Source: a virus | Taxonomy: Duplodnaviria; Heunggongvirae; Uroviricota; Caudoviricetes | Virus record (IMG/VR): IMGVR_UViG_2648501186_000011 | Location: 1-19,270 of that record | Strand: one strand, 5' to 3' | DNA: 19,270 nt | In this document: positions 1,874-19,270 of the stretch, one piece after another | Numbering within the stretch: position 1 is the stretch's first letter | Layout of the letters: the number at the start of each line of letters is the position of its first letter | Notes under the pieces: model-generated | The model's database searches: none | What the model saw: only the letters and a program-made list of their open reading frames with translations | Told to the model about the DNA's origin: nothing | Program-made: the position numbers and the translations under genes

Positions 1874-1882
1874 TATTACCCC

Positions 1883-2305
1883 TTAAAAACGCGCTTGATA
1901 GTCAATTTTTAATGTTAGAGTTGCGACTACATAACCATCGCTAGAATCATCTTCCCATGCTGTTTTACTTGCTACGGGGTTAATATCCATGATGCGAATA
2001 CCAGTTTCGATCAATCTAGGGTTGGTTGCGTCAATTTTAATTAGATCATAAACGGCTTTATGAACGGCTGTTTCACCGCGACTAGAGAAGACCTGAAATT
2101 CGATATTCAACGAGGATAATTGACCGTTACCACTACCACGAATAGGGGTAAATGTTTCATCCATTTCTACGATCCATACAGTAGCGTCTGTATCGCTCGA
2201 TAGCTTCGCGTGTTCAGCATTAAGGTCTAATCCTAGCTGGTCGGTAATAATATCCATAAAAGCGCGTTTAAGAGCTAATCGAGGCATATTATTCATACTT
2301 GCCAT
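1883..2305 (-). CDS. Hypothetical structural protein (140 aa)
   Basis: ORF track; SD AGGGGG 5 nt upstream of ATG at 2305. Overlaps the upstream gene by 17 nt, suggesting translational coupling. Function not recognised. Confidence 0.6.
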   Translation of the reverse strand: MASMNNMPRLALKRAFMDIITDQLGLDLNAEHAKLSSDTDATVWIVEMDETFTPIRGSGNGQLSSLNIEFQVFSSRGETAVHKAVYDLIKIDATNPRLIETGIRIMDINPVASKTAWEDDSSDGYVVATLTLKIDYQARF

Positions 2306-2579
2306 GTTTACCCCCTACTACAGTAATATAGGCTTCAATAAGGCCGGATCTGTCATCTTTAATATAATTAACCTTATTACGCACACCTTCGATAATGACA
2401 ATATCACCGGACTTTAGATCACCTCGTGCACAAATCAGATATTCACTTTCAGTAACACCACCATCCGGTGTATCAATATGATTAAACTCGTGATGTGCTT
2501 TGATGATTTTCCCGTCTGATTTTTGAAATTCTTCTGCAAATTTTAAAGCCCTGCGAATCTGGCTATCAGTTAATTTCAT
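2289..2579 (-). CDS. Hypothetical small structural protein (96 aa; start refined from the ORF-track 2624)
   Basis: The ORF-track start at 2624 has no SD and lies inside the terminator hairpin. The internal ATG at 2577-2579 (MKLTDSQIRR...) is preceded by AGGGGG with a 5-nt spacer. Confidence 0.55.
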   Translation of the reverse strand: MKLTDSQIRRALKFAEEFQKSDGKIIKAHHEFNHIDTPDGGVTESEYLICARGDLKSGDIVIIEGVRNKVNYIKDDRSGLIEAYITVVGGKHGKYE

Positions 2580-2609
2580 GAGTACCCCCTTTATGGAGTA
2601 TTTACATAC

Positions 2610-2635
2610 AAAAAAGCCCCGCACTAGGCAGGGCT
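2610..2635 (-). terminator. Intrinsic terminator downstream of the capsid gene
   Basis: Minus-strand RNA: AGCCCUGC-CUAGU-GCGGGGCU followed by UUUUUU (8-bp stem with one G.U). Sits about 110 nt after the 684-aa ORF stop, a typical place for a terminator after a highly expressed capsid gene. Confidence 0.65.
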
Positions 2636-2742
2636 AATTATCATTCTTTAGGCTTGCGGCCTCGTTTTGCTGTGGCTTTCGCCTTAACCGTCTGGGGTTC
2701 TTCCCCCAAATCGGGGGAAGGAATAGAAGGTTCTACAGGAGT

Positions 2743-4797
2743 TCATTCACCTTTTTTCTGAACTACGGTCAGTGCGCTATGGTCCATAACAGCCCAATCA
2801 AGGTCAGCCCATACGCGGAAGTACAGGTTGCCAGCCGCGCGACCTGTGGTATCGTCGCAATCCAGTTCCAGCGATCCGAAGTCTGCAATAACAAGGGAGC
2901 TAAAGTCACCAAACAGCATGGTATCCTGAGCAACTACACCAGAGCCATAGATCGGACGGTTAACCAGCTTGTCACCTTCTACCAGGAAGCCCGGAACGTT
3001 AGCAGCTTTGAGTTGCGCTGCCAGTTCAGCTTTAACAACACCACGGGTAGCAAATGCCAGATCCGCTTCGTTATAACCTTTATCGGTCAGTTCAGCTACC
3101 AGTTTCAGGAACTCGGCATAAGTCCAATCAATCTGTTTAACTTTGCCAGCATCGGTCAGCATCTTAGTCAGGCCATCACGAGCGTTAGTGTTAGCAGCAT
3201 TGGACAGAATCGCTTTTTCCAGAGCGATAGCACTATGTTTCAGCATGTGCTCACCAACGATAGCACCGATGTTAGGCAGAGTGATAGCGGCCTGGCGAGT
3301 TACAGGAACAATTCCATTGAATGTCTTAAGAGTCATCGGCTGTGCTGCAAACTTGATAGTACCTTCACCAGCGGATTGGCCTTCTGCAACAAAACCGAAG
3401 TTTTCCAGATTGCTAGAAGTCAGAGACGGCAGAGAAACAGGACCAGTTGCGTTAATGGTACGAGCGCCCAATTTACCCAGAATCGAGCGTTCCATGATCA
3501 TATCAACGAAGCAATCATGGCGGATTTCTTCACCAACTACTGGTTTCAGGGATTCCATGTTCTGACCAGCACGCAGAGCAGACGCCGGAATGAATACGGA
3601 GTTAGAACGCTGTGCGCGACCACGCGCTGCGGCTTTACGTGCTTCTTCCTGAGAATATTCAGCTTCTGCGCCAGTCAGGGCTTTACCCTCTGCGATTGCA
3701 CGCACAGCCTTATTAAGATCGAAACGGGATTCCAGAGTTTTAATGGTATCGGTCATGGTAATTTTTCCTTTAACAAAAGTTTTAGATTCGGTAGTATTTA
3801 GTGCGCGTGCTTTTTCTTTAAAATTTTCAATAGTCACGGCACTATCTTTAATTGCAGCTTCAATTACGTCTTCGGAGATATTTAGATGTTTTCCGATAGC
3901 ACGAATTTCGGCGGTATCTTCGCGAGAACGTTCAAACGGTTTTTCGTCGTCTTCAATCTTTTCTTCTTCGACTGGTTCGGATGTATTTTCCGTTTCGTCG
4001 TTCTCGTCTGTATCTTTATTTAGTTCTTCTGTTTCTTCCGGTTCATCTTCGGAACGTTCTTCTTTTTCTTCTGGCGTTACTTCTTGCGGTTCTTCCACAT
4101 CTTCGCCACTGTCAGCACTATTTCCAGAATCGGAATCAATTTCTTCATTTTCTTGTTCCTCTTTCTCTTCTTCGGAACGTTTTTCTTCATCTTCCGGTTT
4201 AATTTCTTCGACCGGAGTATCTTTAATTTCGTCTTCCACTTGTTCACCCTCCAAAACAATCATTTCGTTGTCTGTATTTAGAGAGCGTCCAACACCCGCA
4301 TTAAATGGATCTGCGGCACACGTTACAAGACTGCATTCGAAAGGTTGCCAGCGTGTAACATAATAGATCCCTTTGTTAAAATCGGCTTTGCCATCAAGAA
4401 CGTTATAACCGACGCTAACTTGTGAAAGTGTTCCCTCTTTTACCTTCTCAAAGCATTCATTAGCCAGTTGGCCTACTTTGGAGAATTGGACAAGGCAACG
4501 ACCTATACGGTCTTCGTCAATACGAGCGGAGCCAGGAACAATCTTACCGATATGAAGATCCAGATTGTGATTAAACAGAAGACTTGCGTTAGTCTCGTTT
4601 AAAACGGATAGATCAACCGCTGATTCATCGTGTACGAGAATCTCTTTTAATTCGACTTGCTCGCCGTCCTGATTCATGTAATAACGTGTATAAGGAGCCT
4701 CGCTTGAGAAAGCCAATTCAATAATTCGTTCGTCTTTTTCTTCGATAAAATCAGGGGTATCTACCGCAACACTACGACGGAATTGTTTTGTTGTCAT
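2743..4797 (-). CDS. Prohead protease / acidic linker / major capsid protein (HK97 fold) fusion, 684 aa
   Basis: N-terminal ~175 aa carry motifs I associate with HK97-type prohead proteases (LLFNHNLDLHIGK, VSVGY, ECSLVTCAADPFNAG). Residues ~185-300 are extremely Glu/Asp-rich low complexity. The C-terminal ~320 aa look like an HK97-fold capsid domain and the gene sits where a capsid gene belongs, after the portal. SD AAGGTG 4 nt upstream. Confidence 0.7.
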   Translation of the reverse strand: MTTKQFRRSVAVDTPDFIEEKDERIIELAFSSEAPYTRYYMNQDGEQVELKEILVHDESAVDLSVLNETNASLLFNHNLDLHIGKIVPGSARIDEDRIGRCLVQFSKVGQLANECFEKVKEGTLSQVSVGYNVLDGKADFNKGIYYVTRWQPFECSLVTCAADPFNAGVGRSLNTDNEMIVLEGEQVEDEIKDTPVEEIKPEDEEKRSEEEKEEQENEEIDSDSGNSADSGEDVEEPQEVTPEEKEERSEDEPEETEELNKDTDENDETENTSEPVEEEKIEDDEKPFERSREDTAEIRAIGKHLNISEDVIEAAIKDSAVTIENFKEKARALNTTESKTFVKGKITMTDTIKTLESRFDLNKAVRAIAEGKALTGAEAEYSQEEARKAAARGRAQRSNSVFIPASALRAGQNMESLKPVVGEEIRHDCFVDMIMERSILGKLGARTINATGPVSLPSLTSSNLENFGFVAEGQSAGEGTIKFAAQPMTLKTFNGIVPVTRQAAITLPNIGAIVGEHMLKHSAIALEKAILSNAANTNARDGLTKMLTDAGKVKQIDWTYAEFLKLVAELTDKGYNEADLAFATRGVVKAELAAQLKAANVPGFLVEGDKLVNRPIYGSGVVAQDTMLFGDFSSLVIADFGSLELDCDDTTGRAAGNLYFRVWADLDWAVMDHSALTVVQKKGE

Positions 4798-4840: not shown

Positions 4841-6364
4841 TTATTCATTTTGAGTATAAGGCGATTTTTCTTTTTCAGTTTCACCCTCACTCACGACGCA
4901 TGTATTTAGCATGTGTTTTTCAGATTCAATTTGTTTGAAAGTCTGAGCAACGTCATAACCCATTTCAGTGATAATCTGAGATTTGGATTTTAAGCCATTT
5001 TCTAACATCATTATTTCGGCTGAGATATCTTTCACCGGATCAACAGACTCAACTTTCGGCCTACTTACCGAAGTAACATCAATAATTGATTCGATCTGAG
5101 TCATTCGAATATTGAGTTTCGAATTAATCACCGCATGTTCAAGGAATGCTTGGAATAACGGTAGAATAACGGTATCAATTAAGCGATCTTGATGCGCTTT
5201 GAAGCGGTTCTTTTCCATTAATGAGCCAAATCTCGCTGCGGAGAAATTCACTGAGCTAGTATCACCAGTCAATGCGGTTTTATAGCTGGAGAGACCCATA
5301 CTAATGGACGTTAGCATTGCCTCGTTAAACGTTTCGAAGTCATCGCCGCCTTGTGTGCTTTGCACCGTCTTAATATCTTGCCCCGGTTCCAAAACGTTAA
5401 TAGTACCCGGTTCGAAATCGGTGATCATCGTCGGCGGTTGATAGTTTTCCGGTTCTTCTTCACCAACATCAAAGGAGTCTTGATTTTCTTTTTCGCTTGT
5501 GATAAACGCCATGCTACTTGCGTGCACGCGTTTGCCAATGATTACGGTTTCGCGGAATGCTTCAAGGTGAGCTATATCTTTGATTATTGGCAGAAAATCC
5601 GTACATCCGCGTAAGGCTTCGGCTGTGCTGGGGATAAAGTAATGCAGCACTCGTTCCGCTGGGATTCGTACACGTTCACCGATGAAGGATTGAGTAAACA
5701 GATCGCGCCGTCTAAACCAGTATGCAACAGGTTTTTCATCTTCGTACTCGATACCAGCATAAACGACATTACCGTTATCTAGAGTACGCTGGTCCGCCCA
5801 ATCAACATGATCCGCGCCATAGATGGACACTTGCAGATCTTTACCATCTTCATGGAGTACCAGAAACGCATCACCGCCCATCACACGCTCTTTTTCCATC
5901 AGCTTTAAGCACTCAAGGAAGTTAATCTTTCCGTTGCGTGAGAATCGTTTCTGAGAGCTAGCCCAACGCCAGAAAGCATTCTCGATTGCTGTGTTAGTGG
6001 TTGCGTCCAGCTTTTCCCCTTTCATAACGAAGGTTCGAGGCTGTAAACCAGTACCTACCACGGAATCGATGACATGTTGGCAATAACGGGAGCCGATAGA
6101 AGTGTTTAACGCAAGGTGTCGCCCTTGATTGTATAAACGTGATGCAGATCCCTTGATCGCGGCGTTAATGCTGCCAGTGATAACCTGACGCGCTGTGCTG
6201 CCTTCAATGCGATCTGATTCAACCAATCCTAATGATCGTTGATGTAGAGCCTTCGTAAATTGTTCAATCTTACGATCTACGAATAATTTGCGGTGCTGGC
6301 GAATACCGATTTTCTTAACCGGATTCACTGGCAATTCTTTTTTACGTTTGAAAAAATTAAACAT
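4841..6364 (-). CDS. Portal protein (lambda gpB-like position and size), 507 aa
   Basis: Size and position between the terminase large subunit and the capsid gene match a lambda-type portal. SD AAGGA 6 nt upstream. Family called from context, not from a motif I can pinpoint. Confidence 0.6.
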   Translation of the reverse strand: MFNFFKRKKELPVNPVKKIGIRQHRKLFVDRKIEQFTKALHQRSLGLVESDRIEGSTARQVITGSINAAIKGSASRLYNQGRHLALNTSIGSRYCQHVIDSVVGTGLQPRTFVMKGEKLDATTNTAIENAFWRWASSQKRFSRNGKINFLECLKLMEKERVMGGDAFLVLHEDGKDLQVSIYGADHVDWADQRTLDNGNVVYAGIEYEDEKPVAYWFRRRDLFTQSFIGERVRIPAERVLHYFIPSTAEALRGCTDFLPIIKDIAHLEAFRETVIIGKRVHASSMAFITSEKENQDSFDVGEEEPENYQPPTMITDFEPGTINVLEPGQDIKTVQSTQGGDDFETFNEAMLTSISMGLSSYKTALTGDTSSVNFSAARFGSLMEKNRFKAHQDRLIDTVILPLFQAFLEHAVINSKLNIRMTQIESIIDVTSVSRPKVESVDPVKDISAEIMMLENGLKSKSQIITEMGYDVAQTFKQIESEKHMLNTCVVSEGETEKEKSPYTQNE

Positions 6365-6944: not shown

Positions 6945-8870
6945 TTAGAAGTTATTAACCCAGCTATTACGACGCACAGGACGCGCCATAGGACGACGAT
7001 TAGGCTTATTGTGAGGGATTGGCTTAGTTTCCTGTTTTTGCTCGTCAGAATGCGATTTAGGAGCTTCTACGGCGGTTTCTGTTTCACGGTTCAGCTTTTC
7101 TTTCAGTGCAATGAGTTTATCCCATGACATTTTTGAAAGAACATAGCGAGAAGCAGCCAGACAATACACAAAACAGTCGAGGCATTCGTTCCTCTGCGAT
7201 CCGGGATTTTTCACCCAACGTGTTCCGGTAGCGGTGCGCTTGATGGACTCACTAAGAAGCTGATCGAGATAGTCATCAGGAACGGTGTGTGATATCTCTA
7301 AGCCAATATGCGGATTATCCTTCAAGTTGCGTGTTAATAGCTCACGAACAGCGGTTTTACCGACGTTTACACCCAACATAAGCAATTCGTGACCACCCGT
7401 GGTAGTTGGCTTAACCGGAATCAGTGGAGCGTTACCGGAGGAACTCCCTTTAATGGCATGAAGATTTTTCCATTTGGTGCAAATGCGGTAGCCAGCTTGT
7501 GTAAATTTACCGTTCGAAGTATCAAGGAAACTAGCCAGAACAGGAACACGCTGGCCTGATACCGTGGTAAACCTGCTTTTCTGGAAGTTGATTAGCTTAT
7601 CCCATACAGGTGATTCGTATCTCTCACAGTTATAATCTCGGAAGACACGGTGATCGAGGATGTAAATCTTATCTTTCGCGATGCCTAGCATAGTTGACTC
7701 GACGCGATCCAACTGCTGGTCCACGCCAAATGTGGCGAAAATAACATCATCTGGGATATTTTCTACACAAACTTCGGTTTTCAGTTGTTCCAGTTCGTTG
7801 ACTTCTACCGCTGTTTCTGCGTCATCGTACACAGTGCCGAGAACTGTATTGTAAAAACTTTGTAAATCAAAGGTTTGCCACGCTTGCGAGAAGTCAGAAA
7901 CACATGATTTGATAGAGCTAAAAGGTGAATACAGACGGCTGATCCAGAATCCTGCTACATCACTTTCACGGGTAGCTCTCCATTCTCCTTGTGCAACCGC
8001 TCTAATGCGATCCCCTTCTGACCAATCACTCTGGCAATGAGGGCAAACATAACGGGCGCTTTCAACACATGGCAGATTGCGACCATCCTGATTTTTCCAC
8101 TCGAACTTAACATTTTCCCACTCGATCACCTGGTGTTTCCCGCAATGCGGACAAGGAACAAAGAATTTACGCTGATCACTTGATAACCATTGTTGATTAA
8201 TCGGTCCCAGCTTAGTGGTCGGGGTACTGGAAACGATAATTCTTGCTTCATCCCCGAAAGTGGTTGCGCGGTTAGCCGCAAGTGCAATCGGATCGCCCTC
8301 TTCACTAGCACTGGCAGCATCACATTCATCAAGCAGAATCAACGGGCTGGTTTTTGAACGCAAGGTTGATGGGCTAGTAAGCGATACCATGTAAAGAAAA
8401 TGATTAGTCTTAAGCTGAATCTGGCTATTGTTATTAACAGCGTTGCGATCATTCTTGTCGGTGATTGCTTCGCGTAATGCCGGACATGCTTCAATGGCTG
8501 GTCGGATCTTCCCGCTTAGGTACTGAGCGGTTTCCTTCGTGGTTGCTTGGCCTATGATGATATTGCTGGGATCGTTAGCTATCTTATTGAATAATATACC
8601 ATTAAGGATGGAAGTTTTGCCGATCTGGGCACTTGTACAAAAAATGTACTTTTTCTTATTCTCTAAGAAAGGAGCATCAATCATGCCTTTCTGAAAGCTG
8701 GTTAATTTAATTTTAGCGCCAGCTTGTGGTCCATCCACTAGGATCATGTTTTCCTCGCACCATTCAGATGGTAAACGCTTAATTGGCGGTCGGATATGTT
8801 TTGATACTTCGTTAAAAATTCGCTTGAGTTTAAATTTATTTGAGAGTTTTTTCACCGTGATTATCCTCAT
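6945..8870 (-). CDS. Terminase large subunit, lambda gpA family (641 aa)
   Basis: Similar in length to lambda gpA as I recall it. Walker A-like [10 protein letters not shown], Walker B-like [11 protein letters not shown], a Cys pair [13 protein letters not shown], and a C-terminal [16 protein letters not shown] that resembles the lambda gpA C-terminus (from memory). No SD before the ATG, and an in-frame stop 18 nt upstream excludes a longer N-terminus. Confidence 0.85.
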
Positions 8871-8925: not shown

Positions 8926-9531
8926 ATGCTAATTAATCAGCAACAAAGAGATGAATTAGAATTAGCATTTTCTTATTGTACCGGTCATGAATATCGTTTA
9001 CCAGTTAAGCACAAGCATTTAAAAACAGATATAACCACTTCTGGCTTTAGTCGTGATGAAGCGAAACAGATTTTAATCGAGTTGTATCGCGATCATGGGT
9101 ATACCGATATTCATAACTTCTTTAAGAAGCATCGCACATCACAGACAGAGTTCCAGAGAGTCCGTGAATGGTTTGATTTTGATATCAAGCGTTATTATCG
9201 AGTGGATGACGGTCCTATCTATCGGTTGCAGTGGACACCGATCAGGGAAGTGTTGAAACAGAAGAGATTGAATCATGCCATTACACGCTATCGTAACGAG
9301 GCTTTCAAGAAAGGCTATGGTGATACAAGGGAACTATTCGTTGAACTCGCTAACGTGAAATATAGCCACTATTACAACGATCCTACAGGGTTCTTCGAAG
9401 TGCTTCGCAAGGTTGATATTAGTCGGGGTACATATTATTCACGGCTGAGGAAGTACGGGATTAAGGCAGAGTTCTTTATGTCGGTTGACGACTCACCCAT
9501 GTTCAAGATAAAATCTAAGTCCTCTAAATAA
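8926..9531 (+). CDS. Hypothetical basic protein (201 aa) with C-terminal HTH-like motif
   Basis: ORF track; SD AAGGGGG 5 nt upstream. The C-terminal VDISRGTYYSRLRKYGIK resembles the recognition helix of the two small GRP-HTH proteins in this window. Confidence 0.6.
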   Translation: MLINQQQRDELELAFSYCTGHEYRLPVKHKHLKTDITTSGFSRDEAKQILIELYRDHGYTDIHNFFKKHRTSQTEFQRVREWFDFDIKRYYRVDDGPIYRLQWTPIREVLKQKRLNHAITRYRNEAFKKGYGDTRELFVELANVKYSHYYNDPTGFFEVLRKVDISRGTYYSRLRKYGIKAEFFMSVDDSPMFKIKSKSSK

Positions 9532-9566
9532 TATTGAGAAATCACTATTGTTTGGAGGAAACTACT

Positions 9567-9794
9567 ATGACTACTAAAGCTACTCGCGGTCGCCCTGCCC
9601 GTTTTACCCGTGAACAGATGGCTGATATTGCCTACGCTTACTATACAGCGGATCGCGGGAAGGAATCGAAAGAACAGATTCTTAGTGAACATGGGATTTC
9701 AGTAGCCCAATTCTATAAGAATATGAAGAAGTTAGACATTAAATTCTATGTTCAGATCGATGACGGTCAGATCGTAGAAGCAACAGGTTTTTGA
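9567..9794 (+). CDS. Small DNA-binding protein, GRP arm plus resolvase/Hin-type HTH (75 aa; start refined from 9534)
   Basis: ATG at 9567 has SD GGAGGA 7 nt upstream. The N-terminal TRGRPARFT is an AT-hook/Hin-like minor-groove arm and HGISVAQFYKNMKKL is a resolvase-type HTH. Paralogous to the 14077..14292 product. Confidence 0.6.
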   Translation: MTTKATRGRPARFTREQMADIAYAYYTADRGKESKEQILSEHGISVAQFYKNMKKLDIKFYVQIDDGQIVEATGF

Positions 9795-10607: not shown

Positions 10608-11480
10608 TTAAATTCCAAAGTATTCCAGCGATCCGGCGTTCTTACGAATCAGTGCGGCAGTATTATTGACGATTGCACGAGCATTGTTAGGCTGCGGTAA
10701 TTTCAAAGTTGCTCGTTGTTCTTCTTCAATCAATCCCAATTTAACCAGCACAGGTAAACAGTCAGTTGTGAACTCAAGCTGACCATGTGCTGATTGTCGA
10801 GCGTACATGTAAGCAGGAGGAAGAACATCATAGCCGTTAGGCTTACCAGAAGCATCCAGACGACGCTCAATGTGTTTAGCCTCACATAACCCTTTCAGAA
10901 TGCGCTGTACCTTGCCAGAGCCTCGTTTTTCGCCCAATAAGCGGGTTAAGCTGTGTGCGTCAATGGCACGGCGAACATGGAGATCAACTAATTGTTGATT
11001 CTCGTGAAGCAATTGTTCTTTTTCTTCTTCAAGTTTAACCGCTTCGCGCATCCAGTCGAGCTTAGTCATCTTGCTTGCGTCTGGGAACGGATTAGCTTCT
11101 TTGTTTGCCAATTCTGTTAGTAAACGTGCGTTTTCCTCTTTCAGAATCTTCCATTCTTTAATTACACGATTACGAATCGGTGTGCTATATCCAGTGACAA
11201 GAGTCATGCAAAGTTCTTCGTTCAAATGGCATACCGGATCTTTAACAACAATACCTAAGCCATTGATTTTCTCCACAAGACCAAAATTGGACTCCTGCGG
11301 GATACCCAATTCTTTGTACATCACGCGAATGTCACGCAAAACATGTTTATGTTTCTTTCCGGTAAACTCGGCGATCTGGAAAGATGACATAGTTAATTCT
11401 TTTTCTACAGAGTCGTTTGCAGCAACCAGAGACACGGAAGCAGTTTTAACAGCAGTATTCATAGTAGTAACAGTATTCAT
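10608..11480 (-). CDS. Rha-family phage regulatory protein / antirepressor-like (290 aa)
   Basis: N-terminal FQIAEFTGKKHKHVLRDIRVMYKELGI matches the HxxVLRDI signature I associate with the Rha family. The start is ambiguous between M1 (11480, SD AAGGGG 10 nt upstream) and M7 because of an 18-bp tandem duplication. Confidence 0.65.
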   Translation of the reverse strand: MNTVTTMNTAVKTASVSLVAANDSVEKELTMSSFQIAEFTGKKHKHVLRDIRVMYKELGIPQESNFGLVEKINGLGIVVKDPVCHLNEELCMTLVTGYSTPIRNRVIKEWKILKEENARLLTELANKEANPFPDASKMTKLDWMREAVKLEEEKEQLLHENQQLVDLHVRRAIDAHSLTRLLGEKRGSGKVQRILKGLCEAKHIERRLDASGKPNGYDVLPPAYMYARQSAHGQLEFTTDCLPVLVKLGLIEEEQRATLKLPQPNNARAIVNNTAALIRKNAGSLEYFGI

Positions 11481-12564: not shown

Positions 12565-12882
12565 GAAAAGAGTGATCTGGTAGAGTCCAAAACTGGTCTG
12601 TACTTGAAAGGTGATTGGATTCAGTCGGGCTAAAGCCCTCCTTCATAGATTTTGATTAAATCATCACCAAAACGAAGAAGTATCTTTAGAATATAAGAAT
12701 CTTTCTTTTGAAGAAATAATAATAATCAAACAAGATGGACGCTCCCTGAGCGTCTGCGAAGCATATCTAATTCCTTCCAGTATCATCAAAGTGATCTAGA
12801 ATCAGTTTGTAATCATTATCTTCAAAGTGATTGTAATATCTTTATCTTGAAAGTGATTATAACTACCTTCTTCAAAGTGATC
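12565..12882. repeat. Direct-repeat family (A/T)TCTTSAAAGTGAT, four good and two degenerate copies
   Basis: Cores at 12787-12795, 12823-12831, 12849-12857 and 12873-12881 spaced 24-36 bp; degenerate copies near 12565-12577 and 12603-12616. Confidence 0.7.
12738..12754. other. Perfect palindrome GACGCTC-cct-GAGCGTC
   Basis: 7-bp inverted repeat with a 3-nt spacer in non-coding DNA. Confidence 0.4.
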
Positions 12883-12943
12883 TTGAATCATCATGTAAAC
12901 CAGATTAAAATCCCTTCCTGAATGATTTCAAAACAGATTACTC

Positions 12944-12959
12944 GCGCCCCGCAGGGCGC
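12944..12959 (+). other. Hairpin GCGCCC-CGCA-GGGCGC followed by a T-rich stretch
   Basis: 6-bp stem then ATAATATTCTTTTCTTTT on the plus strand; terminator-like, sharing the GCCCCGCAGG core with 6921-6940. Confidence 0.4.
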
Positions 12960-13074
12960 ATAATATTCTTTTCTTTTATCTACAATCTCTTTCATACCAA
13001 CTCTTTACTATTAACTATTACATATTACATATGACACCCTTCTAAGCCTTGTCCTGTCTGGGTTTCCGTGATTT

Positions 13075-13166
13075 TTGTACATCCTTGTACATCGTAGTAC
13101 ATGTGTTGTACATCCTTGTACATCCTTGTACACGTCACGTACATAGATGTACATCCTTGTACATCT
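13075..13166. repeat. Helically phased array of nine TTGTACATCC-type repeats
   Basis: GTACA begins at 13077, 13087, 13097, 13108, 13118, 13128, 13139, 13149 and 13159, a 10-11 bp period, so every copy is on one face of the helix. Confidence 0.8.
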
Positions 13167-13249
13167 AGGTTAAAAACCAATCAAAAATAGCCATAAAATC
13201 ACCATTTTGAGGGTGTATTTGCTCAATATTTCATCGTGTTTTTGTGATT

Positions 13250-13322
13250 CTGTACAGCAAATCTGTGTCTTGTACACCTTGTACATCTAATACATGTCTT
13301 GTACACCTTGTACATCTAATAC
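13250..13322. repeat. Second TGTACA cluster with two ~28-bp direct repeats
   Basis: gtcttgtacaccttgtacatctaatac occurs twice (about 13267-13293 and 13296-13322). GTACA at 13252, 13272, 13281, 13301 and 13310. Confidence 0.75.
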
Positions 13323-13495
13323 CGGGGAATAGCCCCCCTAATACCGGGGGATTTGTGGATACTAATACCGGGGAAAAAAAACCTAATACCGGGGGATTTT
13401 TATGTGGATGAATGATGGCCTAATCCGGGGGATTCTCTTACAGGACGGTTATCATTTACCCCCTAATACCGGGGAAATTAACCTAATCCGGGGGA
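13316..13495. repeat. Seven iteron-like direct repeats CTAAT(A)CCGGGG(G)A with DnaA-box-like motifs
   Basis: Copies start at 13316, 13338, 13362, 13383, 13420, 13463 and 13483, mostly 20-24 bp apart. TGTGGATAc (13353-13361) and TGTGGATGA (13403-13411) resemble the DnaA box TGTGGATAA. An AT-rich stretch follows at 13540-13640. Confidence 0.75.
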
Positions 13496-13643
13496 TTTTT
13501 GCTTCCAAAACGGGGATATCGCGGGGAAACCCTTAAATTCATTCAAATATTTTGATAGAAAATTCTTGTATATTATTTAACCAAAAAATCATCAAAAATC
13601 GCTGTAGCTTAATGATTTAAAAGGAATTTTCAAAAGGTCACCG

Positions 13644-13652
13644 TGCTATAAT
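13644..13652 (+). promoter_or_regulatory. Possible extended -10 promoter element (TGcTATAAT)
   Basis: TATAAT at 13647-13652 with TG at 13644-13645; only a weak -35 (TTTTCA region). Confidence 0.35.
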
Positions 13653-13732
13653 AGGTTATAAAGGTTGATAATCATTATTCGCCATTTTCACACAAAAATT
13701 TTGATAGTCTTTTCTCGCTTAGGTCAAGGGTA

Positions 13733-13761
13733 TTGACATCTGTCAAGGATTATTTTATGCT
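13733..13761 (+). promoter_or_regulatory. Sigma70-like promoter TTGACA, 17-nt spacer, TATGCT, with overlapping palindrome
   Basis: -35 at 13733-13738, -10 at 13756-13761. The palindrome TTGACA-tc-TGTCAA (13733-13746) recalls the 11980-12000 operator-like site. Confidence 0.5.
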
Positions 13762-13942
13762 TTTTCTCGTTGGTAGGGGTTGAAATTTTCAAAACAATCC
13801 CCATATAGATGATAAGCAAGATTTTCTCGCTACTAAATACATGTGAGCGATGATTATGACTCACTGACCTGAAAAGCTGAAACAGCATAAAATTCTAAAA
13901 AATGCGGTTTTCAGTTTTTCAAAAAGGGGTACAGGAGTCAGA

Positions 13943-13984
13943 ATGATTAAAAAATCGCCAGATAATATTCTGTCTATAGCGTAA
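13943..13984 (+). other. 13-codon mini-ORF (MIKKSPDNILSIA) with a strong SD
   Basis: AGGAG (13932-13936) 6 nt before the ATG at 13943; stop at 13982-13984. It is followed about 35 nt later by the terminator hairpin at 14021-14041, a leader-peptide-like arrangement. Confidence 0.35.
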
Positions 13985-14020
13985 AACTAAGCGCATTACA
14001 GAATAATATAAATATCATCG

Positions 14021-14041
14021 AGAGCGGTTAACGCTCTTTTT
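14021..14041 (+). terminator. Intrinsic terminator/attenuator upstream of the first rightward gene
   Basis: AGAGCG-GUUAA-CGCUCU followed by UUUUU, 20 nt upstream of the SD for the 14077 gene. Confidence 0.6.
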
Positions 14042-14076
14042 AATAAGAAAGATTTGTCTCTTAAGGGGAAGAAACT

Positions 14077-14292
14077 ATGAAAAACTCAATCATGGGGCGT
14101 CCGGTTAAAATCACCGAAGAAAAATACAAAGAAATCCTGATTGCTTACCACTCACAAGTTAATGCAACGAATGCTGATCGTGATGCACTTCTGGCAAAAT
14201 ATGGAATTACTCGCCGGACGTTTTCAAGGCTAGCTCATCGTTACCCAAATGTGAAAGTCGTAACTAAAGTGGTGAATGTAGAAATAGCATAA
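14077..14292 (+). CDS. Small DNA-binding protein, GRP arm plus resolvase/Hin-type HTH (71 aa)
   Basis: SD AAGGGG 8 nt upstream. MGRPVKIT...LLAKYGITRRTFSRLAHRY is paralogous to the 9567..9794 product. Confidence 0.65.
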   Translation: MKNSIMGRPVKITEEKYKEILIAYHSQVNATNADRDALLAKYGITRRTFSRLAHRYPNVKVVTKVVNVEIA

Positions 14293-14396: not shown

Positions 14397-15512
14397 ATGT
14401 CTAACAAGAATAACACTTCAATTGTATTTATTAACTTCAAAAACGACGAAAGCATTCTGAGCAACAATGAACAGATCGTGATGAAAGATTGTGGTGAAAA
14501 TGTCACTACCGTTTTCAAAGAAACTGCAAACACTCTAACCGAACTGGTTGCTAAAGTTCGCGGATATGGTGCTGTTCGTAAAGCTGAGTTTGAGATGGTT
14601 CAAAACTATACCCGCTCTGTTACGGTTGGCGACAAGAAATATAACAAAAACACACATAAGCTGATCGCTAATGATGAAATCAAACTGGTACAGATTTGCA
14701 CTACCGACAAAAACGCTATTTTCTTGTTGGTTGTTCTTGAAAATGAAGCTGGTTTACGTCGCGGTGTTCTGCGTCACCGTTCCATGCGTAATGAAGCTGG
14801 TGTGATTGGTTCTAAAATCCATAACCGCGCATACACTTCTACTTCCAACTGGATCATTGCTGGCGAGAACGAAGGTAAAACAGGCGAGACTTTCAACATT
14901 GCTTTCTTCTCTGCTTTTGACGAAAAGAAACATGTTAAATGGAAACTGAATAATGAAGCCGTAGAAGCTCCTGTGCGCGATTCTGAGAAACAATCTGTTG
15001 AAATCGATGAATCCCACATCATGGCTATGATTCGCGGCGTAGAGAAGCGTTTACGTGATGAATTTAACGCTAAACTTGAAGCTAAAGACAAAGAGATCGC
15101 GGAACTGAAAGCACGTTTAGAAGCAGTAGAAATCAAGACTATTGACACTACTGAAAATCCTGTTTCTAAAGACGTTGTTGCTGATCTGCAATGCGAGATC
15201 CAGATCGCCAGCGACTTCCAGAAAGCAACCAACAAACTCAATGCAAAATTAGAGCGTCGTGATAATGGTCAGCGTCTGTCTGGTGATGATATTCAGGTTA
15301 TTCTGCGCGGTGATATGAAAGAGATTAATGCTAAGTTTGCACCGAAAGGTGTTTTTGCTAGCAAGATTAACGAAGCCCAGGTCGATGAATTGATGCACGC
15401 GTTAGAAGCAGACACCAACGAGACTGTTAAAGCCGCTAATGATGACGTTGCGGCATCTGCAATCGTTTCTGACGAATATTTGAAAGAATTAGATGCACTT
15501 TTGGCTATGTAA
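14397..15512 (+). CDS. Hypothetical protein A (371 aa): N-terminal globular domain plus C-terminal coiled-coil-like region
   Basis: ORF track; SD GGAG 10 nt upstream. The C-terminal half is rich in charged, heptad-like sequence (KLEAKDKEIAELKARLEAVE). No recognisable family. Confidence 0.7.
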   Translation: MSNKNNTSIVFINFKNDESILSNNEQIVMKDCGENVTTVFKETANTLTELVAKVRGYGAVRKAEFEMVQNYTRSVTVGDKKYNKNTHKLIANDEIKLVQICTTDKNAIFLLVVLENEAGLRRGVLRHRSMRNEAGVIGSKIHNRAYTSTSNWIIAGENEGKTGETFNIAFFSAFDEKKHVKWKLNNEAVEAPVRDSEKQSVEIDESHIMAMIRGVEKRLRDEFNAKLEAKDKEIAELKARLEAVEIKTIDTTENPVSKDVVADLQCEIQIASDFQKATNKLNAKLERRDNGQRLSGDDIQVILRGDMKEINAKFAPKGVFASKINEAQVDELMHALEADTNETVKAANDDVAASAIVSDEYLKELDALLAM

Positions 15513-15539: not shown

Positions 15540-16631
15540 ATGAAGACTTACACCGACATTACCAACAAACAATTTTCTACCGCTGATCATTCGGTGGTTA
15601 GGCTTGCTATCTGGTCAGATATGAAATTTACCTTTAAATTTGGGTGTAAAGGATTTAAGATTAATTTTTCAGTTGACCACGTATTACCGGACCGCGCTGA
15701 TGACCTGATTAAGATTTTGCGTTATCGTGGCTATGGCCTAACCAATGGTGAGTTAACCATGATCTACAGCTTCGTTAATAAATCCGGTGATATGCTTGTT
15801 CGTAATATTACTGGTTATGAAATTAACGGTAAAAAAGGTGTTGCTATGACCGTTGTTGGTCGTGGTGGTATGGTTGCCGTTTATACATTCGGGTATAGCG
15901 CATTTTATAGCAAGAAAAATGATTACTATTATGGCAAGCGCACTAAACTAGATCATTACGGTCGTTATAGCCTGGGTGTTGCGGCTAAATATGAAAGTTG
16001 TATTGTTCTTAAAGATTCGATTCATGGTGAATTTGAAATCATGTCACAATACGACAAAACGCCTTATGACTACTACCGTGTAAAAGTTAAAGTACCGAAA
16101 GTGTTAGAGCCTCACGAATCTCATGTTGAATGCCGTGCTAAAACAATTAAAAAACTGCGTGATGAGAATGACCAGCTTTCTACGCGTCTAAGCAAGTTAA
16201 AAACCAAAGTACGAGATAAACGTAATCGTCACACTATCGAAGAACGTAAAGCTGCATACGATGAATACGTGGTTACTTTAAAGAAACGTGATGCTTTGCG
16301 TGAGTATTTTTGCAAAATCGATGCGATGTGCGCTGGTCGTTTGTACAGAGGAAAGAATGTGGCTGCGGTGAGTTTTGAGGAAATGGCAGAATTAACGCCT
16401 ATCAAGGAAGAGATTCAACTACCGAATGAAAAGGTTGCTTTGGTTAACGAAAAACGTAAACTAGTTGAAAAGGTGGCACAGGTGGATAAAGAGATTAAAA
16501 CTAGCGAAGGAATGGTTAAAGAGGCGTACATCGCTTTGCGTGATTCCTTAGAGATTCAAATCAAGCATATTGACCTTGAGATCTTGAAACTGTCCATGCC
16601 TAACCGCCCTACTCTACGTCTTGTTGCTTAA
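15540..16631 (+). CDS. Hypothetical protein B (363 aa): aromatic-rich N-terminal domain plus basic coiled-coil-like C-terminus
   Basis: ORF track; SD AAGAGGA upstream; 27 nt after gene A, so probably co-transcribed. Ends at the strong terminator at 16644-16676. Confidence 0.7.
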   Translation: MKTYTDITNKQFSTADHSVVRLAIWSDMKFTFKFGCKGFKINFSVDHVLPDRADDLIKILRYRGYGLTNGELTMIYSFVNKSGDMLVRNITGYEINGKKGVAMTVVGRGGMVAVYTFGYSAFYSKKNDYYYGKRTKLDHYGRYSLGVAAKYESCIVLKDSIHGEFEIMSQYDKTPYDYYRVKVKVPKVLEPHESHVECRAKTIKKLRDENDQLSTRLSKLKTKVRDKRNRHTIEERKAAYDEYVVTLKKRDALREYFCKIDAMCAGRLYRGKNVAAVSFEEMAELTPIKEEIQLPNEKVALVNEKRKLVEKVAQVDKEIKTSEGMVKEAYIALRDSLEIQIKHIDLEILKLSMPNRPTLRLVA

Positions 16632-16939: not shown

Positions 16940-17218
16940 TTATTTAGTATCCTTGTTACTTAACACAAGAAACACCAGATAAAACAGAATCAGGATAAAG
17001 CACGTTTTACCAAATCCTTCGGGGTTAACATCAAACAGAATCATAGAGATTAACGCTACCACAAAACTAATCGCTTCGATGATAACTACGATAGCAGAAT
17101 ACCCGATAAACGCGCCTAAGAATAATTCGTACTTCTCTTTATTACTGTCAGAAAGACCGTAAGCGGTAATCATGGAAAGCGCGGTAATGATTACGAGATA
17201 AGTCAGAAAAATAGTCAT
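16940..17218 (-). CDS. Small membrane protein (92 aa, about three predicted TM segments)
   Basis: Three hydrophobic stretches (FLTYLVIITALSMITAYGL, LGAFIGYSAIVVIIEAISFVVALISMILF, CFILILFYLVFLVL) and a short polar C-terminus. SD AGAGG upstream. Holin-like or exclusion-protein-like in shape only. Confidence 0.6.
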   Translation of the reverse strand: MTIFLTYLVIITALSMITAYGLSDSNKEKYELFLGAFIGYSAIVVIIEAISFVVALISMILFDVNPEGFGKTCFILILFYLVFLVLSNKDTK

Positions 17219-17348: not shown

Positions 17349-17906
17349 TTACGACACATCAAATTCATCGTCTTCTTGTTCTTCTTCCGGTTCTTCCTGC
17401 TTCACTTCCTCATCTTCTGAGTATTCATCGTAGGCATCAAGATCCGGTGAAATCATAATATCCCCGATCTCATTCAAACGAGCGGAAATGATATCCTTCA
17501 ATGTTTCTTTCAAAGTACGCTGATCCGTTGCAGCTTCCATAATTTTTAGAGTGTCTACCGTCGCCACCTGCATCATGGTCTGGCGTACATCACCACAAAA
17601 TCCGGCTAGAACTGTTTCTACATAACCTACAGGAATCAGATCATTTAGTTCGGTGCGGTTCTTAAGTTCGATGGCATCGGCCTCGCCTCTCGCCTTTCTT
17701 AATCGTTCTTGTTGGATCTGCGCTTGTACATCCACTTCCCTAAGTGGGTTAATGATGTTCTCAAGCACCCAGGCGATCGCTCTATCCCGTGGACAACGGC
17801 GGGTATTCGTATTATACGGAAGACCACGATCACGCCATTTCTGAACAGCCGGAAGGGAATACCCATACATTTTAGATAATTCGGTTAAAGTTACTTCTTG
17901 CGTCAT
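17349..17906 (-). CDS. Terminase small subunit, lambda Nu1 family (186 aa; start refined from 17981)
   Basis: ATG at 17904-17906 has SD AGAGGA 7 nt upstream; the ORF-track start has none. N-terminal HTH LTELSKMYGYSLPAVQKWRDRGLPY and central ERLRKARGEADAIELKN...VETVLAGFCGDV parallel lambda Nu1 as I recall it. Acidic C-terminal tail. Confidence 0.65.
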   Translation of the reverse strand: MTQEVTLTELSKMYGYSLPAVQKWRDRGLPYNTNTRRCPRDRAIAWVLENIINPLREVDVQAQIQQERLRKARGEADAIELKNRTELNDLIPVGYVETVLAGFCGDVRQTMMQVATVDTLKIMEAATDQRTLKETLKDIISARLNEIGDIMISPDLDAYDEYSEDEEVKQEEPEEEQEDDEFDVS

Positions 17907-18214
17907 GAAACTATCCTCTGAGCTAAAAATATGCGTAATTGTATTTAGACGAAATACGCAATATAACGGCCTATAACGCAATTTAAGAAAATCCCATGTG
18001 ACGGGGCGTTGAGAAGTGATTTAGCTCGTTGTAGGGCTTGTTTGGTGGCTTAACTAAACCAATTTGAAAAAGGCACAAGCGAGATTTAAACCGCGCCGGG
18101 CAAAACACGCCCTCTTTTGCCACCTATCACAGTACCTTTTTGTTGTCAAGTCTTTTTTATCGAATATTTTAAATTTTTTCATCTTTTTTCTCGTGCATTC
18201 ATCCGTTTTTTTCT

Positions 18215-18283
18215 CGGTCAAAATCAATGACTTGACCAGTTGACACTGATCCGGTCATCAATATAATCGGTCACACTTTGACC
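18215..18283. promoter_or_regulatory. Cluster of CGGTCA / TGACC half-sites around the lipoprotein promoter
   Basis: CGGTCA at 18215, 18252 and 18268; TTGACC at 18232 and 18278. Includes the palindrome GGTCA-cactt-TGACC (18269-18283) just downstream of the -10. Confidence 0.45.
18240..18267 (+). promoter_or_regulatory. Near-consensus sigma70 promoter TTGACA, 16-nt spacer, TATAAT
   Basis: -35 TTGACA at 18240-18245 and -10 TATAAT at 18262-18267, about 115 nt upstream of the lipoprotein start codon. Confidence 0.7.
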
Positions 18284-18383
18284 ATGTAAGGTGTGTTTCG
18301 GATGTGAGGATTAACGATAGATATTTACATAAATAAAGATGTGGTTAATCCATTCATCAATTTAATTCTCTGGAGGATATTCT

Positions 18384-18956
18384 ATGTTTAAAAAGATTGG
18401 TGTTATTGCTGCGGTTGTTCTGTTATCTGGTTGTGCGTCTATGGCTGAACTTGAAAAGCGTAGTGATGGTCTTTCGGCTTATCCTGGCATCAAGTATGAA
18501 CAGTTTCAGGGGTATGAGATTGTAAGTAGCTATACAACTACAAAGGCAACTCGCCCATATAACAAACTTAAAATGCAATCCTGTCTCTATGACACTGTGC
18601 GTAATGACATTATGGTGCATACTGACGCATTCAATGAGATTAAAGATTTAGAAGCTGGTGGTCGTATTGTTGAACGCGCCCGTTCTAATAGTGCTATTTT
18701 TAGTGGCAACTTCGAGCAAACTATTACCTTGCGTACTATTGTAGGTGACACTCCCTATACTCAATATGTGAAGTATAAAGGTATTGCTTTACCGTCCGGT
18801 GATAAGACACAGTTCACATTTACCGGATTGAGTGTTAAGCCTAAATCTGGTGGCGAGCATCCACTATGGTCACGTAAAACAAATAGCCCAGAAGAAAGTA
18901 TTAAAGAACTTGATAAGCTGGCGGATGAGATTGCCGATTGTCTTAATGATGAATAA
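18384..18956 (+). CDS. Lipoprotein (190 aa), candidate superinfection-exclusion factor
   Basis: Signal peptide with lipobox MFKKIGVIAAVVLLSG|C. SD GGAGGA 6 nt upstream. Exclusion role is by analogy only. Confidence 0.75.
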   Translation: MFKKIGVIAAVVLLSGCASMAELEKRSDGLSAYPGIKYEQFQGYEIVSSYTTTKATRPYNKLKMQSCLYDTVRNDIMVHTDAFNEIKDLEAGGRIVERARSNSAIFSGNFEQTITLRTIVGDTPYTQYVKYKGIALPSGDKTQFTFTGLSVKPKSGGEHPLWSRKTNSPEESIKELDKLADEIADCLNDE

Positions 18957-18973
18957 AGAATAACTGATTATAT

Positions 18974-18999
18974 AGCCTCGCTAAATGCGGGGCTTTTTT
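18974..18999 (+). terminator. Intrinsic terminator after the lipoprotein gene
   Basis: AGCCUCGC-UAAAU-GCGGGGCU (one G.U) followed by UUUUUU. Confidence 0.75.
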
Positions 19000-19039: not shown

Positions 19040-19270
19040 ATGACCAAAGAAGAATTTTTGAAGCTGTCCGTTAAAGAGCAGAAGTCACTGGTTAATGACA
19101 TGCTTAATGAGCGTGGCTGGAAGGTGGTTGAAACAGAAGAGTATGGAACTGATTGGCATCAACGGATCATGATCATCAATACTGGTGGTGATGAATGGCG
19201 TGATTGGTGTCTTCGTACTGTTACCCCGCTTTCCCTTGTTACTGGCGTTGGCTTTCTGGAAAGAGAGTAA
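19040..19270 (+). CDS. Hypothetical protein (76 aa; start refined from 18998)
   Basis: ATG at 19040 has SD GAGGAA 6 nt upstream; the ORF-track start overlaps the preceding terminator. Stop is the last codon of the window. Confidence 0.5.
   Translation: MTKEEFLKLSVKEQKSLVNDMLNERGWKVVETEEYGTDWHQRIMIINTGGDEWRDWCLRTVTPLSLVTGVGFLERE

What the first reader, a model, noticed from the sequence alone, without database searches (positions are those of the whole stretch)
18215..18999. Lipoprotein gene driven by a near-consensus promoter embedded in GGTCA/TGACC half-sites
TTGACA, 16 nt, TATAAT is about as strong as sigma70 promoters get, and it is overlapped by repeated half-sites including a palindrome just after the -10, implying tight repression. 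Phage lipoproteins expressed this way are classic superinfection-exclusion factors that block the phage's own receptor, as T5 Llp does.
Basis: partly seen in the sequence, partly recalled or inferred. Interest (0 to 1): 0.55.

Follow-up and report, generated by a model that had tools for sequence, protein, structure and literature searches.

The report
Prophage-end lipoprotein gene with consensus promoter
At the very end of an E. coli prophage sits a self-contained gene cassette (perfect promoter, lipoprotein gene, terminator) for an uncharacterised phage-only outer-membrane lipoprotein; this is the usual layout of a prophage accessory gene, and neither a role in blocking other phages nor tight repression is shown.

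Summary
TTGACA-16-TATAAT lies at 18240-18267 and is the only 12/12 promoter match in the window. Five GGTCA/TGACC half-sites lie at 18216-18283. One pair forms the palindrome GGTCA-N5-TGACC, just after the -10. The promoter is followed by a GGAGG ribosome site, a 190-aa lipoprotein ORF (18384-18956) and an intrinsic terminator (18974-18994).

The window is a ~40 kb E. coli/Shigella prophage, integrated in hicB by a serine recombinase. The cassette is its second-to-last gene, beside the small-terminase gene.

The core promoter is kept in all four diverged prophage lineages, so it is very likely real. The GGTCA sites occur only in the E. coli lineage and nowhere else in the prophage. I found no candidate binding protein. 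"Tight repression" is therefore unsupported.

The protein has a conserved lipobox, Ala at +2 (outer-membrane sorting) and two further invariant cysteines. Its confident model has a helix-grip/TBP-like fold (closest: DUF4468, BamC N-domain). It shows no similarity to Llp, Cor, Bor, spanins or virion proteins.

The family is tiny and found only in phage or prophage contexts. One member is in a T4-like phage; another lies directly upstream of a gpJ tail-tip gene. Superinfection exclusion remains the leading guess, untested.

The parts
18137..18212 (+). Run of T5-T7 tracts, partly in helical phase, upstream of the promoter. Candidate curved or UP-like DNA, or a binding region for nucleoid proteins.
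   Evidence: Read from the sequence. TTTTT/AAAAA occurs 9 times in 70 bp from 18153, the second strongest 5-mer cluster in the window. Any function is inferred.
18216..18237 (.). Inverted repeat GGTCA-N12-TGACC (half-sites 1 and 2). It encloses an exact IHF core consensus, AATCAATGACTTG, at 18222-18234, centred about 46 nt upstream of the predicted start.
   Evidence: The IHF pattern WATCAANNNNTTR matches only 3 times in the window. This repeat is absent from L002, L005 and L006, partly because those lack a stretch of sequence present here.
18240..18267 (+). Sigma-70 promoter: -35 TTGACA (18240-18245), 16-nt spacer holding half-site 3 (GGTCA, 18253-18257), -10 TATAAT (18262-18267). Predicted transcription start about 18273-18275.
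   Evidence: 12/12, unique in the window. The same position holds TTGACA-16-TATAAT in L005, TTGACA-16-TACAAT in L006 and TTGACA-17-TATCAT in L002. The start site is inferred, not measured.
18269..18283 (.). Exact palindrome GGTCA-CACTT-TGACC (half-sites 4 and 5) across the predicted transcription start. Candidate operator.
   Evidence: the only 0-1-mismatch match in the window. No good match in the rest of the prophage. Not conserved in relatives. Binding is not shown.
18274..18383 (+). Leader of about 110 nt with Shine-Dalgarno GGAGG at 18372-18376, 7 nt before the ATG.
   Evidence: Sequence. No significant RNA structure (z = -1.08). No Rfam family in the window. 18348-18366 is an 84% copy of the spacer and -10 segment 18249-18267.
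18384..18956 (+). Lipoprotein gene of 190 aa. Signal peptide residues 1-16, lipobox LLSG|C17, Ala at +2, invariant Cys67 and Cys186, helix-grip/TBP-like fold.
   Evidence: invariant columns; pLDDT 87.8, pTM 0.82; fold matches. phrog_29243, unknown function, E = 2e-12. RefSeq calls it a hypothetical protein, WP_046788650.1.
18974..18999 (+). Intrinsic terminator: 8-bp stem with 6 G-C pairs, 5-nt loop, then TTTTTT.
19040..19270 (+). Downstream 76-aa ORF with no family match, the last gene before the prophage-host junction in hicB. It could be reached only by read-through of the terminator.
   Evidence: In L001 a second terminator-like hairpin follows it, then the truncated hicB.

Best explanation
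This is a 'moron': a self-contained accessory transcription unit at the extreme end of an integrated temperate phage.

How it most likely works:
1. Host sigma-70 RNA polymerase starts at the perfect TTGACA-16-TATAAT promoter, with no need for phage late activators.
2. It makes a roughly 700-nt single-gene mRNA that ends at the intrinsic terminator.
3. The product is a prolipoprotein. It is lipidated at Cys17 and sorted to the inner leaflet of the outer membrane, as Ala at +2 predicts.
4. It exposes a disulfide-stabilised helix-grip/TBP-like domain to the periplasm.
5. It belongs to a very small family found only in phage or prophage contexts.

The most likely role is to alter or mask an envelope component, for example the phage's own receptor, so that the lysogen or infected cell resists further infection. 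That is superinfection exclusion by analogy with Llp, Cor and the mEp Lpp proteins. It is analogy, not homology.

Shown here: the sequence elements, conservation of the core promoter, the lipobox and cysteines, the fold and the genomic position. Inferred: expression in the lysogen, outer-membrane location, the disulfide and the exclusion function.

The GGTCA half-sites and the IHF-consensus site are real sequence features that may modulate the promoter. Their role is open, and repression is not established.
For: Promoter and unit:
- The promoter is 12/12 and unique in the window, and the terminator follows directly.
- The core promoter is retained where flanking DNA has diverged. The lipoprotein is 66% and 50% identical in those lineages.
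- Distant members also carry their own promoter-like sites. One has its own terminator.

Position:
- The cassette is the second-to-last gene of a ~40 kb prophage split across hicB, with the serine recombinase at the far end.

Protein:
- The lipobox Cys, Ala at +2, Cys67 and Cys186 are invariant in six homologues.
- No virion, lysis or defence family matches.

Contexts of relatives:
- One homologue lies in a T4-like phage among small ORFs downstream of DNA ligase.
- Another lies between gpI and gpJ of a lambda-like siphovirus, directly upstream of gpJ.

Precedent: prophage lipoproteins that exclude phages using the same receptor have been shown experimentally for the mEp phages (PMC11893012).
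Against: - There is no functional or homology link to any characterised exclusion protein. The fold is generic, shared with START/Bet v1/TBP-like proteins, and does not indicate a function.
- The gene's G+C content (~41%) matches the rest of the phage, so the compositional hallmark of many morons is missing.
- In the window the gene is not next to the tail-fibre or tip genes.
- Expression in the lysogen is unmeasured.
- If the half-sites do bind a repressor, the gene may be silent in lysogens.
Confidence: 0.55

Rival explanations
1. The consensus promoter is held tightly off by a repressor that binds the GGTCA/TGACC half-sites. When expressed, the lipoprotein blocks the phage's own receptor as T5 Llp does.
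For: Five half-sites lie in 68 bp, exactly over the best promoter (p ~ 8e-4 for a fixed 70-bp stretch). One is an exact dyad across the predicted start, another lies in the spacer, and a dyad sits just upstream of the -35. That is a typical operator geometry. All E. coli-lineage variants keep the five cores.
Against: The sites are missing from the homologous promoters in L002, L005 and L006, although the core promoter is kept. No other copy of the dyad exists in the prophage. No repressor-like protein was identified. Counted over all words and positions, the cluster is not unusual. Variation within the lineage is too low to be informative (0 changes seen, about 1 expected). There is no similarity to Llp or Cor. 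An exclusion gene of a prophage is usually expressed in the lysogen, not tightly repressed.
Confidence: 0.2
2. The cassette is a lysogenic-conversion or fitness gene unrelated to phage exclusion. Possible roles are serum resistance like lambda Bor, adhesion, envelope-stress tolerance, or interference with outer-membrane biogenesis through the BamC-like domain.
For: It has the same moron architecture and position at the prophage end. The host strains are human-gut E. coli and Shigella. The fold resembles the N-domain of BamC, a lipoprotein of the BAM complex.
Confidence: 0.25
3. The half-site and IHF cluster belongs to the DNA-packaging site, by analogy with lambda cosB, where small-terminase-binding repeats flank an IHF site. 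It overlaps the lipoprotein promoter only by position.
For: The cluster lies in the intergenic region upstream of a Nu1-like small terminase gene (phrog_57 E = 1e-17; 28% identity to phi80 and mEp237 Nu1). The large terminase is of the lambda gpA type. An exact IHF core lies between two inverted half-sites. The sites are unique in the genome, as a cos site would be.
Against: The sites are 310-380 nt from the terS start. They lie beyond blocks that are conserved in all four lineages (about 18060-18170) and are the better cos candidates. The sites themselves are not conserved, although terS is 50-57% and terL 55% identical. The two inverted sites are only 12 bp apart, too close for IHF-mediated looping of the lambda kind (lambda geometry from general knowledge).
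Confidence: 0.07
4. The half-sites have no specific function. They come from local duplication and from -35-like TTGAC(C/A) words around a constitutive promoter.
For: Three of the five sites read TTGACC, one mismatch from the -35 consensus. The region carries local duplications, for example 18249-18267 against 18348-18366 at 84%. 58% of simulated windows contain a cluster this extreme for some word. The sites are absent in relatives.
Against: Exact coincidence with the single best promoter (p ~ 8e-4). Exact dyad symmetry at the start site.
Confidence: 0.3

Closest known systems
T5 Llp (and BF23 Llp), receptor-blocking lipoproteins
   Same: A phage-encoded lipoprotein with its own promoter and, probably, a structural disulfide. 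One distant homologue of the present family sits beside the receptor-binding tail gene, as llp does.
   Different: No sequence or fold similarity. The mature protein is 174 aa, against roughly 60 aa (from memory). In the window it is not adjacent to tail genes. Exclusion is untested.
Cor (phi80, N15, HK022, T1), phrog_1119
   Same: A small prophage lipoprotein expressed as an accessory gene, which excludes FhuA-dependent phages.
   Different: The only match is residues 3-25, the signal peptide, at E = 0.002. The mature domains are unrelated.
Lambda morons bor and lom, and the moron concept of Hendrix and colleagues (recalled from general knowledge)
   Same: An autonomous promoter-gene-terminator unit near the cos-proximal end of the genome. 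Bor is also an outer-membrane lipoprotein, expressed from the prophage.
   Different: No Lambda_Bor Pfam match. The G+C content does not differ from the rest of the phage.
mEpimmI phage Lpp exclusion lipoproteins (PMC11893012)
   Same: Coliphage and prophage lipoproteins shown experimentally to exclude phages that use the same outer-membrane receptor.
   Different: Those genes lie inside the structural cluster. A tblastn search of the phage collection with this protein found nothing, so there is no detectable homology to any deposited phage in that collection.
DUF4468 / TBP-like Bacteroides proteins (4e6f, 4jhy) and the BamC N-terminal helix-grip domain (2laf, 2yh6)
   Different: Sequence identity is 6-9%. 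The function of the DUF4468 proteins is unknown. Pfam DUF4468 does not match the protein. The fold is widespread.

Membership tests
Bacterial lipoprotein (Lgt/LspA/Lnt substrate) | N-terminal signal peptide ending in a lipobox [LVI][ASTVI][GAS]C | tested here: met
   MFKK-IGVIAAVVLL-SG|C17. The lipobox Cys is invariant in six homologues.
Bacterial lipoprotein (Lgt/LspA/Lnt substrate) | Actual lipid modification and outer-membrane sorting | not testable with these tools
   Ala at +2 in all homologues predicts Lol-dependent outer-membrane sorting by the +2 rule. This is an inference.
Moron (autonomous accessory unit of a prophage) | Own promoter and own terminator flanking a single non-essential gene | tested here: met
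   12/12 promoter at 18240-18267 and terminator at 18974-18994. The core promoter is conserved in four lineages.
Moron (autonomous accessory unit of a prophage) | Located between or outside the core phage modules | tested here: met
   Second-to-last gene before the hicB junction. Last gene in the Proteus-type loci L005 and L006.
Moron (autonomous accessory unit of a prophage) | Base composition different from neighbouring phage genes | tested here: not met
   G+C is 0.41, against about 0.42 for the window.
Moron (autonomous accessory unit of a prophage) | Transcribed in the lysogen while lytic genes are off | not testable with these tools
   Needs RNA-seq or a reporter assay.
T5 Llp / Cor receptor-blocking lipoproteins | Sequence or structural homology to Llp or Cor | tested here: not met
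T5 Llp / Cor receptor-blocking lipoproteins | Gene adjacent to the receptor-binding tail protein gene | tested here: inconclusive
   Not so in the window, where the neighbour is terS. It is so for the distant homologue P0011, directly upstream of gpJ.
T5 Llp / Cor receptor-blocking lipoproteins | Expression blocks adsorption or DNA entry of phages using the cognate receptor | not testable with these tools
   Needs an experiment.
o-spanin (Rz1-type lysis lipoprotein) | Short proline-rich lipoprotein, embedded in or next to an i-spanin gene in the lysis cassette | tested here: not met
   190 aa, folded alpha/beta domain. The endolysin-type gene lies at the far side of the prophage (L004 15302-15655). 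No spanin family hit.
Repressor-controlled promoter (operator) | Dyad-symmetric sites overlapping the core promoter or start site | tested here: met
   GGTCA-N5-TGACC at 18269-18283. A half-site in the spacer. GGTCA-N12-TGACC upstream of the -35.
Repressor-controlled promoter (operator) | Sites conserved, or replaced by equivalent dyads, in related elements, or repeated at other regulated promoters of the same phage | tested here: not met
   Absent in L002, L005 and L006. No second copy in the window or the rest of the prophage.
Repressor-controlled promoter (operator) | An identifiable cognate DNA-binding protein | tested here: inconclusive
   No CI/Cro-type family was found. Small HTH-like ORFs exist (9534-9794, 14077-14292) but nothing links them to GGTCA. 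By recall only, I could match no E. coli factor: the RutR half-site TTGACCA is similar, but the spacing is wrong.

The most novel reading that the evidence does not exclude
The protein founds a new class of phage-encoded outer-membrane lipoproteins, with a helix-grip/BamC-like fold, shared by temperate and T4-like virulent phages, that block infection at the envelope. In this phage the cassette lies next to the probable cos site, on the side that would be packaged last. If packaging polarity is lambda-like, it would therefore be the first DNA to enter a new host. The consensus promoter would then make it the first gene expressed, under a lineage-specific GGTCA operator and IHF control.
Probability: 0.2. 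Interest if true: 0.55.

Novelty: new member of a known kind. Interest (0 to 1): 0.33.

Why it matters
If the exclusion function were shown, it would add a structurally new family to the few known receptor-masking phage lipoproteins (Llp, Cor, mEp Lpp). That family spans temperate and virulent phages. It would also give a handle on the unknown receptor of an undescribed group of hicB-integrating E. coli/Shigella prophages. The cassette is compact: a 12/12 promoter carrying a discrete set of half-sites and an IHF consensus, so promoter control by sites overlapping the core is easy to test. As it stands, it is an ordinary-looking prophage accessory gene of unknown function.

Tried and rejected
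- Near-identity DNA and tblastn searches of deposited phage genomes with the locus and the protein found nothing.
- Pfam, NCBIfam and PADLOC gave no hit for the lipoprotein. A profile search of PDB sequences gave only noise (renin, E ~ 1.6).
- The exhaustive representative search gave four hits. Two (P0006, P0008) are long repetitive proteins whose scores come from seven summed weak repeats. I treat them as spurious.
- The BFVD viral fold search gave no significant match. The afdb50 library was unavailable.
- The 5' leader does not fold better than shuffled controls (z = -1.08). There is no Rfam match.
- A genome-contig scan with the family profile found no relative. A viral-contig scan found only the same phage, a 38.2 kb IMG/VR contig that ends about 3 nt beyond the window. 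Two earlier attempts failed because the alignment was too diverse.
- A literature search for GGTCA/TGACC operators returned only the Gram-positive CtsR box (GGTCAAA repeats), which is irrelevant in E. coli.
- By recall, no E. coli factor fits. RutR (TTGACCAnnTGGTCAA) shares the half-site but not the arrangement. CRP, FNR, LexA and FadR do not fit.
- Variation within the E. coli lineage is too low to test constraint on the half-sites.
- I considered the start-site palindrome as a stabilising 5' RNA hairpin and rejected it. The predicted start falls inside the left arm, so the hairpin would not be fully transcribed.

Full report
**What is in the sequence**

A scan of both strands finds 38 promoter-like sites. 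Only one is a 12/12 match: TTGACA at 18240-18245, a 16-nt spacer and TATAAT at 18262-18267. GGTCA or its complement occurs five times between 18216 and 18283, against 38 times in all 19,270 nt.

The five sites are arranged as follows:
- an inverted pair, GGTCA-N12-TGACC, at 18216-18237;
- one GGTCA in the promoter spacer, at 18253-18257;
- an exact palindrome, GGTCA-CACTT-TGACC, at 18269-18283, starting 2 nt after the -10 and spanning the predicted start.

Downstream lie a leader of about 110 nt, GGAGG at 18372-18376, a 190-codon ORF at 18384-18956, and an intrinsic terminator at 18974-18994 followed by a T-run.

**How unusual the half-site cluster is**

For one fixed 70-bp stretch, the chance that any non-trivial 5-mer, counted on both strands, occurs five or more times is about 8e-4. 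Only four such places exist in the real window. If neither the word nor the place is fixed beforehand, 58% of Markov-simulated sequences of this length contain a cluster at least as extreme. The cluster is noteworthy because it sits on the best promoter, not in itself.

Three of the five sites read TTGACC, a near-consensus -35 word. The region also carries local duplications. An exact IHF core consensus, AATCAATGACTTG, lies at 18222-18234 between the first two half-sites. It is one of only three matches in the window. Upstream, at 18137-18212, is a series of T5-T7 tracts, the second strongest word cluster in the window.

**Genomic setting**

The window is phage DNA. On the minus strand it holds a lambda-type gpA large terminase (6945-8870), a lambda-family portal (4841-6364) and a protease-capsid fusion (2743-4797). 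It also holds a Rha/Ant-type regulator (10608-11480) and a distant Nu1-like small terminase (17349-17906).

The locus is 98.8% identical to the chromosome of E. coli RMDEC332. There it is part of a prophage of about 40 kb that splits hicB. A large serine recombinase and an IS911 copy lie at the far end. Other E. coli and Shigella contigs show the same junction. The same phage is a 38.2 kb IMG/VR contig whose end nearly coincides with the window end.

The lipoprotein gene is therefore the second-to-last gene of the prophage. It is transcribed towards the host junction and is followed only by a 76-aa ORF (19040-19270) and a second terminator-like hairpin.

**Comparative test of the promoter and the sites**

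The protein has very few relatives. Three diverged prophage lineages keep the same synteny, with terS divergent from the lipoprotein gene:
- L002, 66% protein identity;
- L005 and L006, about 50% identity. The L005 lineage is from Proteus.

In the intergenic alignment the core promoter is retained in all three: TTGACA-17-TATCAT in L002, TTGACA-16-TATAAT in L005 and TTGACA-16-TACAAT in L006. This is good evidence that the promoter is functional and under selection.

The GGTCA sites are not retained. L002 has none near the promoter. L005 and L006 have only TGAC-containing words downstream of the -10. Part of the site-bearing sequence is an insertion specific to the window's lineage. No other good copy of either dyad exists in the window or in the rest of the prophage.

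Within the E. coli lineage all five cores and both hexamers are invariant. With about 4% variable positions, only about one change was expected in the 25 core nucleotides, so this says nothing.

No CI/Cro-like repressor could be recognised. The small HTH-like ORFs at 9534-9794 and 14077-14292 are candidates with no supporting link. 'Tight repression' is a possibility, not a finding.

**The protein**

The N-terminus is a typical lipoprotein signal, MFKKIGVIAAVVLLSG|C17. The lipobox cysteine, Ala at +2, Cys67 and Cys186 are invariant in six homologues that go down to 24% identity. By the +2 rule this predicts an outer-membrane lipoprotein. The two extra invariant cysteines suggest a periplasmic disulfide. 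Both points are inferences.

No Llp, Cor, Bor, spanin, virion or defence family matches by sequence or by fold. The weak PHROG hit to Cor covers only the signal peptide. The one full-length family match is phrog_29243, of unknown function. There is equally no positive link to T5 Llp.

**Where the distant relatives sit**

P0007 (29% identity) lies in a T4-like phage contig, in a block of small ORFs downstream of DNA ligase. It is preceded by TTGACA-17-TAGTAT. P0011 (24% identity) lies in a lambda-like siphovirus, inserted with a Bro-N gene between gpI and gpJ. It has its own terminator and lies directly upstream of the tip-attachment/host-specificity gene.

The family thus appears only in phage or prophage contexts. 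Where neighbouring genes could be read, it sits in accessory positions with its own expression signals, once next to the receptor-binding gene. That pattern fits an infection-related envelope function such as superinfection exclusion. Experimental precedent exists for unrelated coliphage lipoproteins (PMC11893012). The pattern does not prove it.

**Most likely mechanism**

This is a moron cassette, transcribed by host sigma-70 polymerase independently of the phage late programme. It produces an outer-membrane-anchored periplasmic lipoprotein that acts on an envelope component. Exclusion of the same or related phages is the leading guess, at roughly one chance in three. A non-phage fitness role is the main alternative. 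I give about 0.85 to the cassette being a real, independently transcribed lipoprotein unit, and about 0.55 to the layered statement as a whole.

They may be without function (about 0.3). Less likely, they are packaging accessory sites (about 0.07). Against the packaging idea, the blocks conserved in all four lineages lie at about 18060-18170, between terS and the promoter. They include a G+C-rich island, CGCCGGGCAAAACACGCCC, and are better cos candidates.

If cos is there and packaging proceeds through terS as in lambda, the cassette would be packaged last and injected first. That would suit an early-acting exclusion protein. This step is pure inference.

**Verdict**

The promoter and lipoprotein unit is real. 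Repression and Llp-like function are unproven.
- It is a new, uncharacterised member of a familiar kind of element, a prophage accessory lipoprotein cassette.
- Interest is modest.

Noticed in passing
window 12780-13520 (within the ORF-poor stretch 12650-14077): Three different families of short direct repeats lie side by side. TCAAAGTGAT(c/t) occurs about 4-5 times at 12787-12885. CCTTGTACAT occurs about 12 or more times at 13070-13165 and 13268-13315; GTACA, at 12 copies in 70 bp, is by far the strongest word cluster in the window. CTAATACCGGGG(g/a)A occurs about 7 times at 13318-13495. This looks like an iteron, origin, partition or regulator-binding array. There is no Rfam hit.
   Followed up: partly
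window 17349-17906 (-) versus 6945-8870 (-): The Nu1-like small terminase gene lies about 8.5 kb from the gpA-type large terminase gene. Between them are Rha, the repeat arrays and two large plus-strand ORFs of unknown function (14397-15512, 15540-16631). The same split is seen in relatives L002 and L005, and apparently in phage DCP80 (terL at 1809-3575, terS-like at 25796-26230).
   Followed up: partly
window 18060-18170: Blocks conserved across four lineages in an otherwise diverged intergenic region: TTTGAAAAAGgCACA, the G+C-rich CGCCGGGCAAAACACGCCC, and CTATCAcAGtACC..TTGTCAAG..TCGAATA. A second conserved block, AAATATGCGTAATTgTATTTAG, lies at 17926-17947 just upstream of terS. These are candidate cos or packaging and late-promoter elements.
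   Followed up: partly
window 9534-9794 (+), 14077-14292 (+) and the C-terminus of 8926-9531 (+): Small proteins share a GRPxxxT...(Y/F)...GI....FY...K motif that looks like a short HTH. They may be paralogous DNA-binding proteins for the repeat arrays. No Pfam or PHROG match.
   Followed up: no
L001 21465-21776 and L004 22824-22943 (E. coli RMDEC332): The prophage integrates inside the antitoxin gene hicB, leaving hicA intact next to a truncated hicB. A large serine recombinase, an IS911 copy and a PHP-like barrel gene lie at the other end. In the Proteus-type loci a PHP gene and a full HicB-like gene directly follow the lipoprotein.
   Followed up: partly
window 13636-13869: Three further GGTCA words lie close to promoter-like elements of the regulatory region: GGTCAC inside TGcTATAAT at 13644-13652, GGTCA 6 nt upstream of TTGACA at 13733, and TGACC in CTGACC-18-TAAAAT at 13864. 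This is weakly suggestive of a shared factor (3 in 230 bp, about 0.45 expected).
   Followed up: no
window 18348-18366: ATCCATTCATCAATTTAAT, just upstream of the ribosome site, is an 84% copy of the spacer and -10 segment ATCCGGTCATCAATATAAT (18249-18267). It has no usable -35, so it is probably a local duplication and not a second promoter.
   Followed up: yes
window 16940-17218 (-): A 92-aa, very hydrophobic ORF (weak DUF997 hit) lies between the unknown plus-strand ORFs and terS. It is probably a small membrane protein.
   Followed up: no
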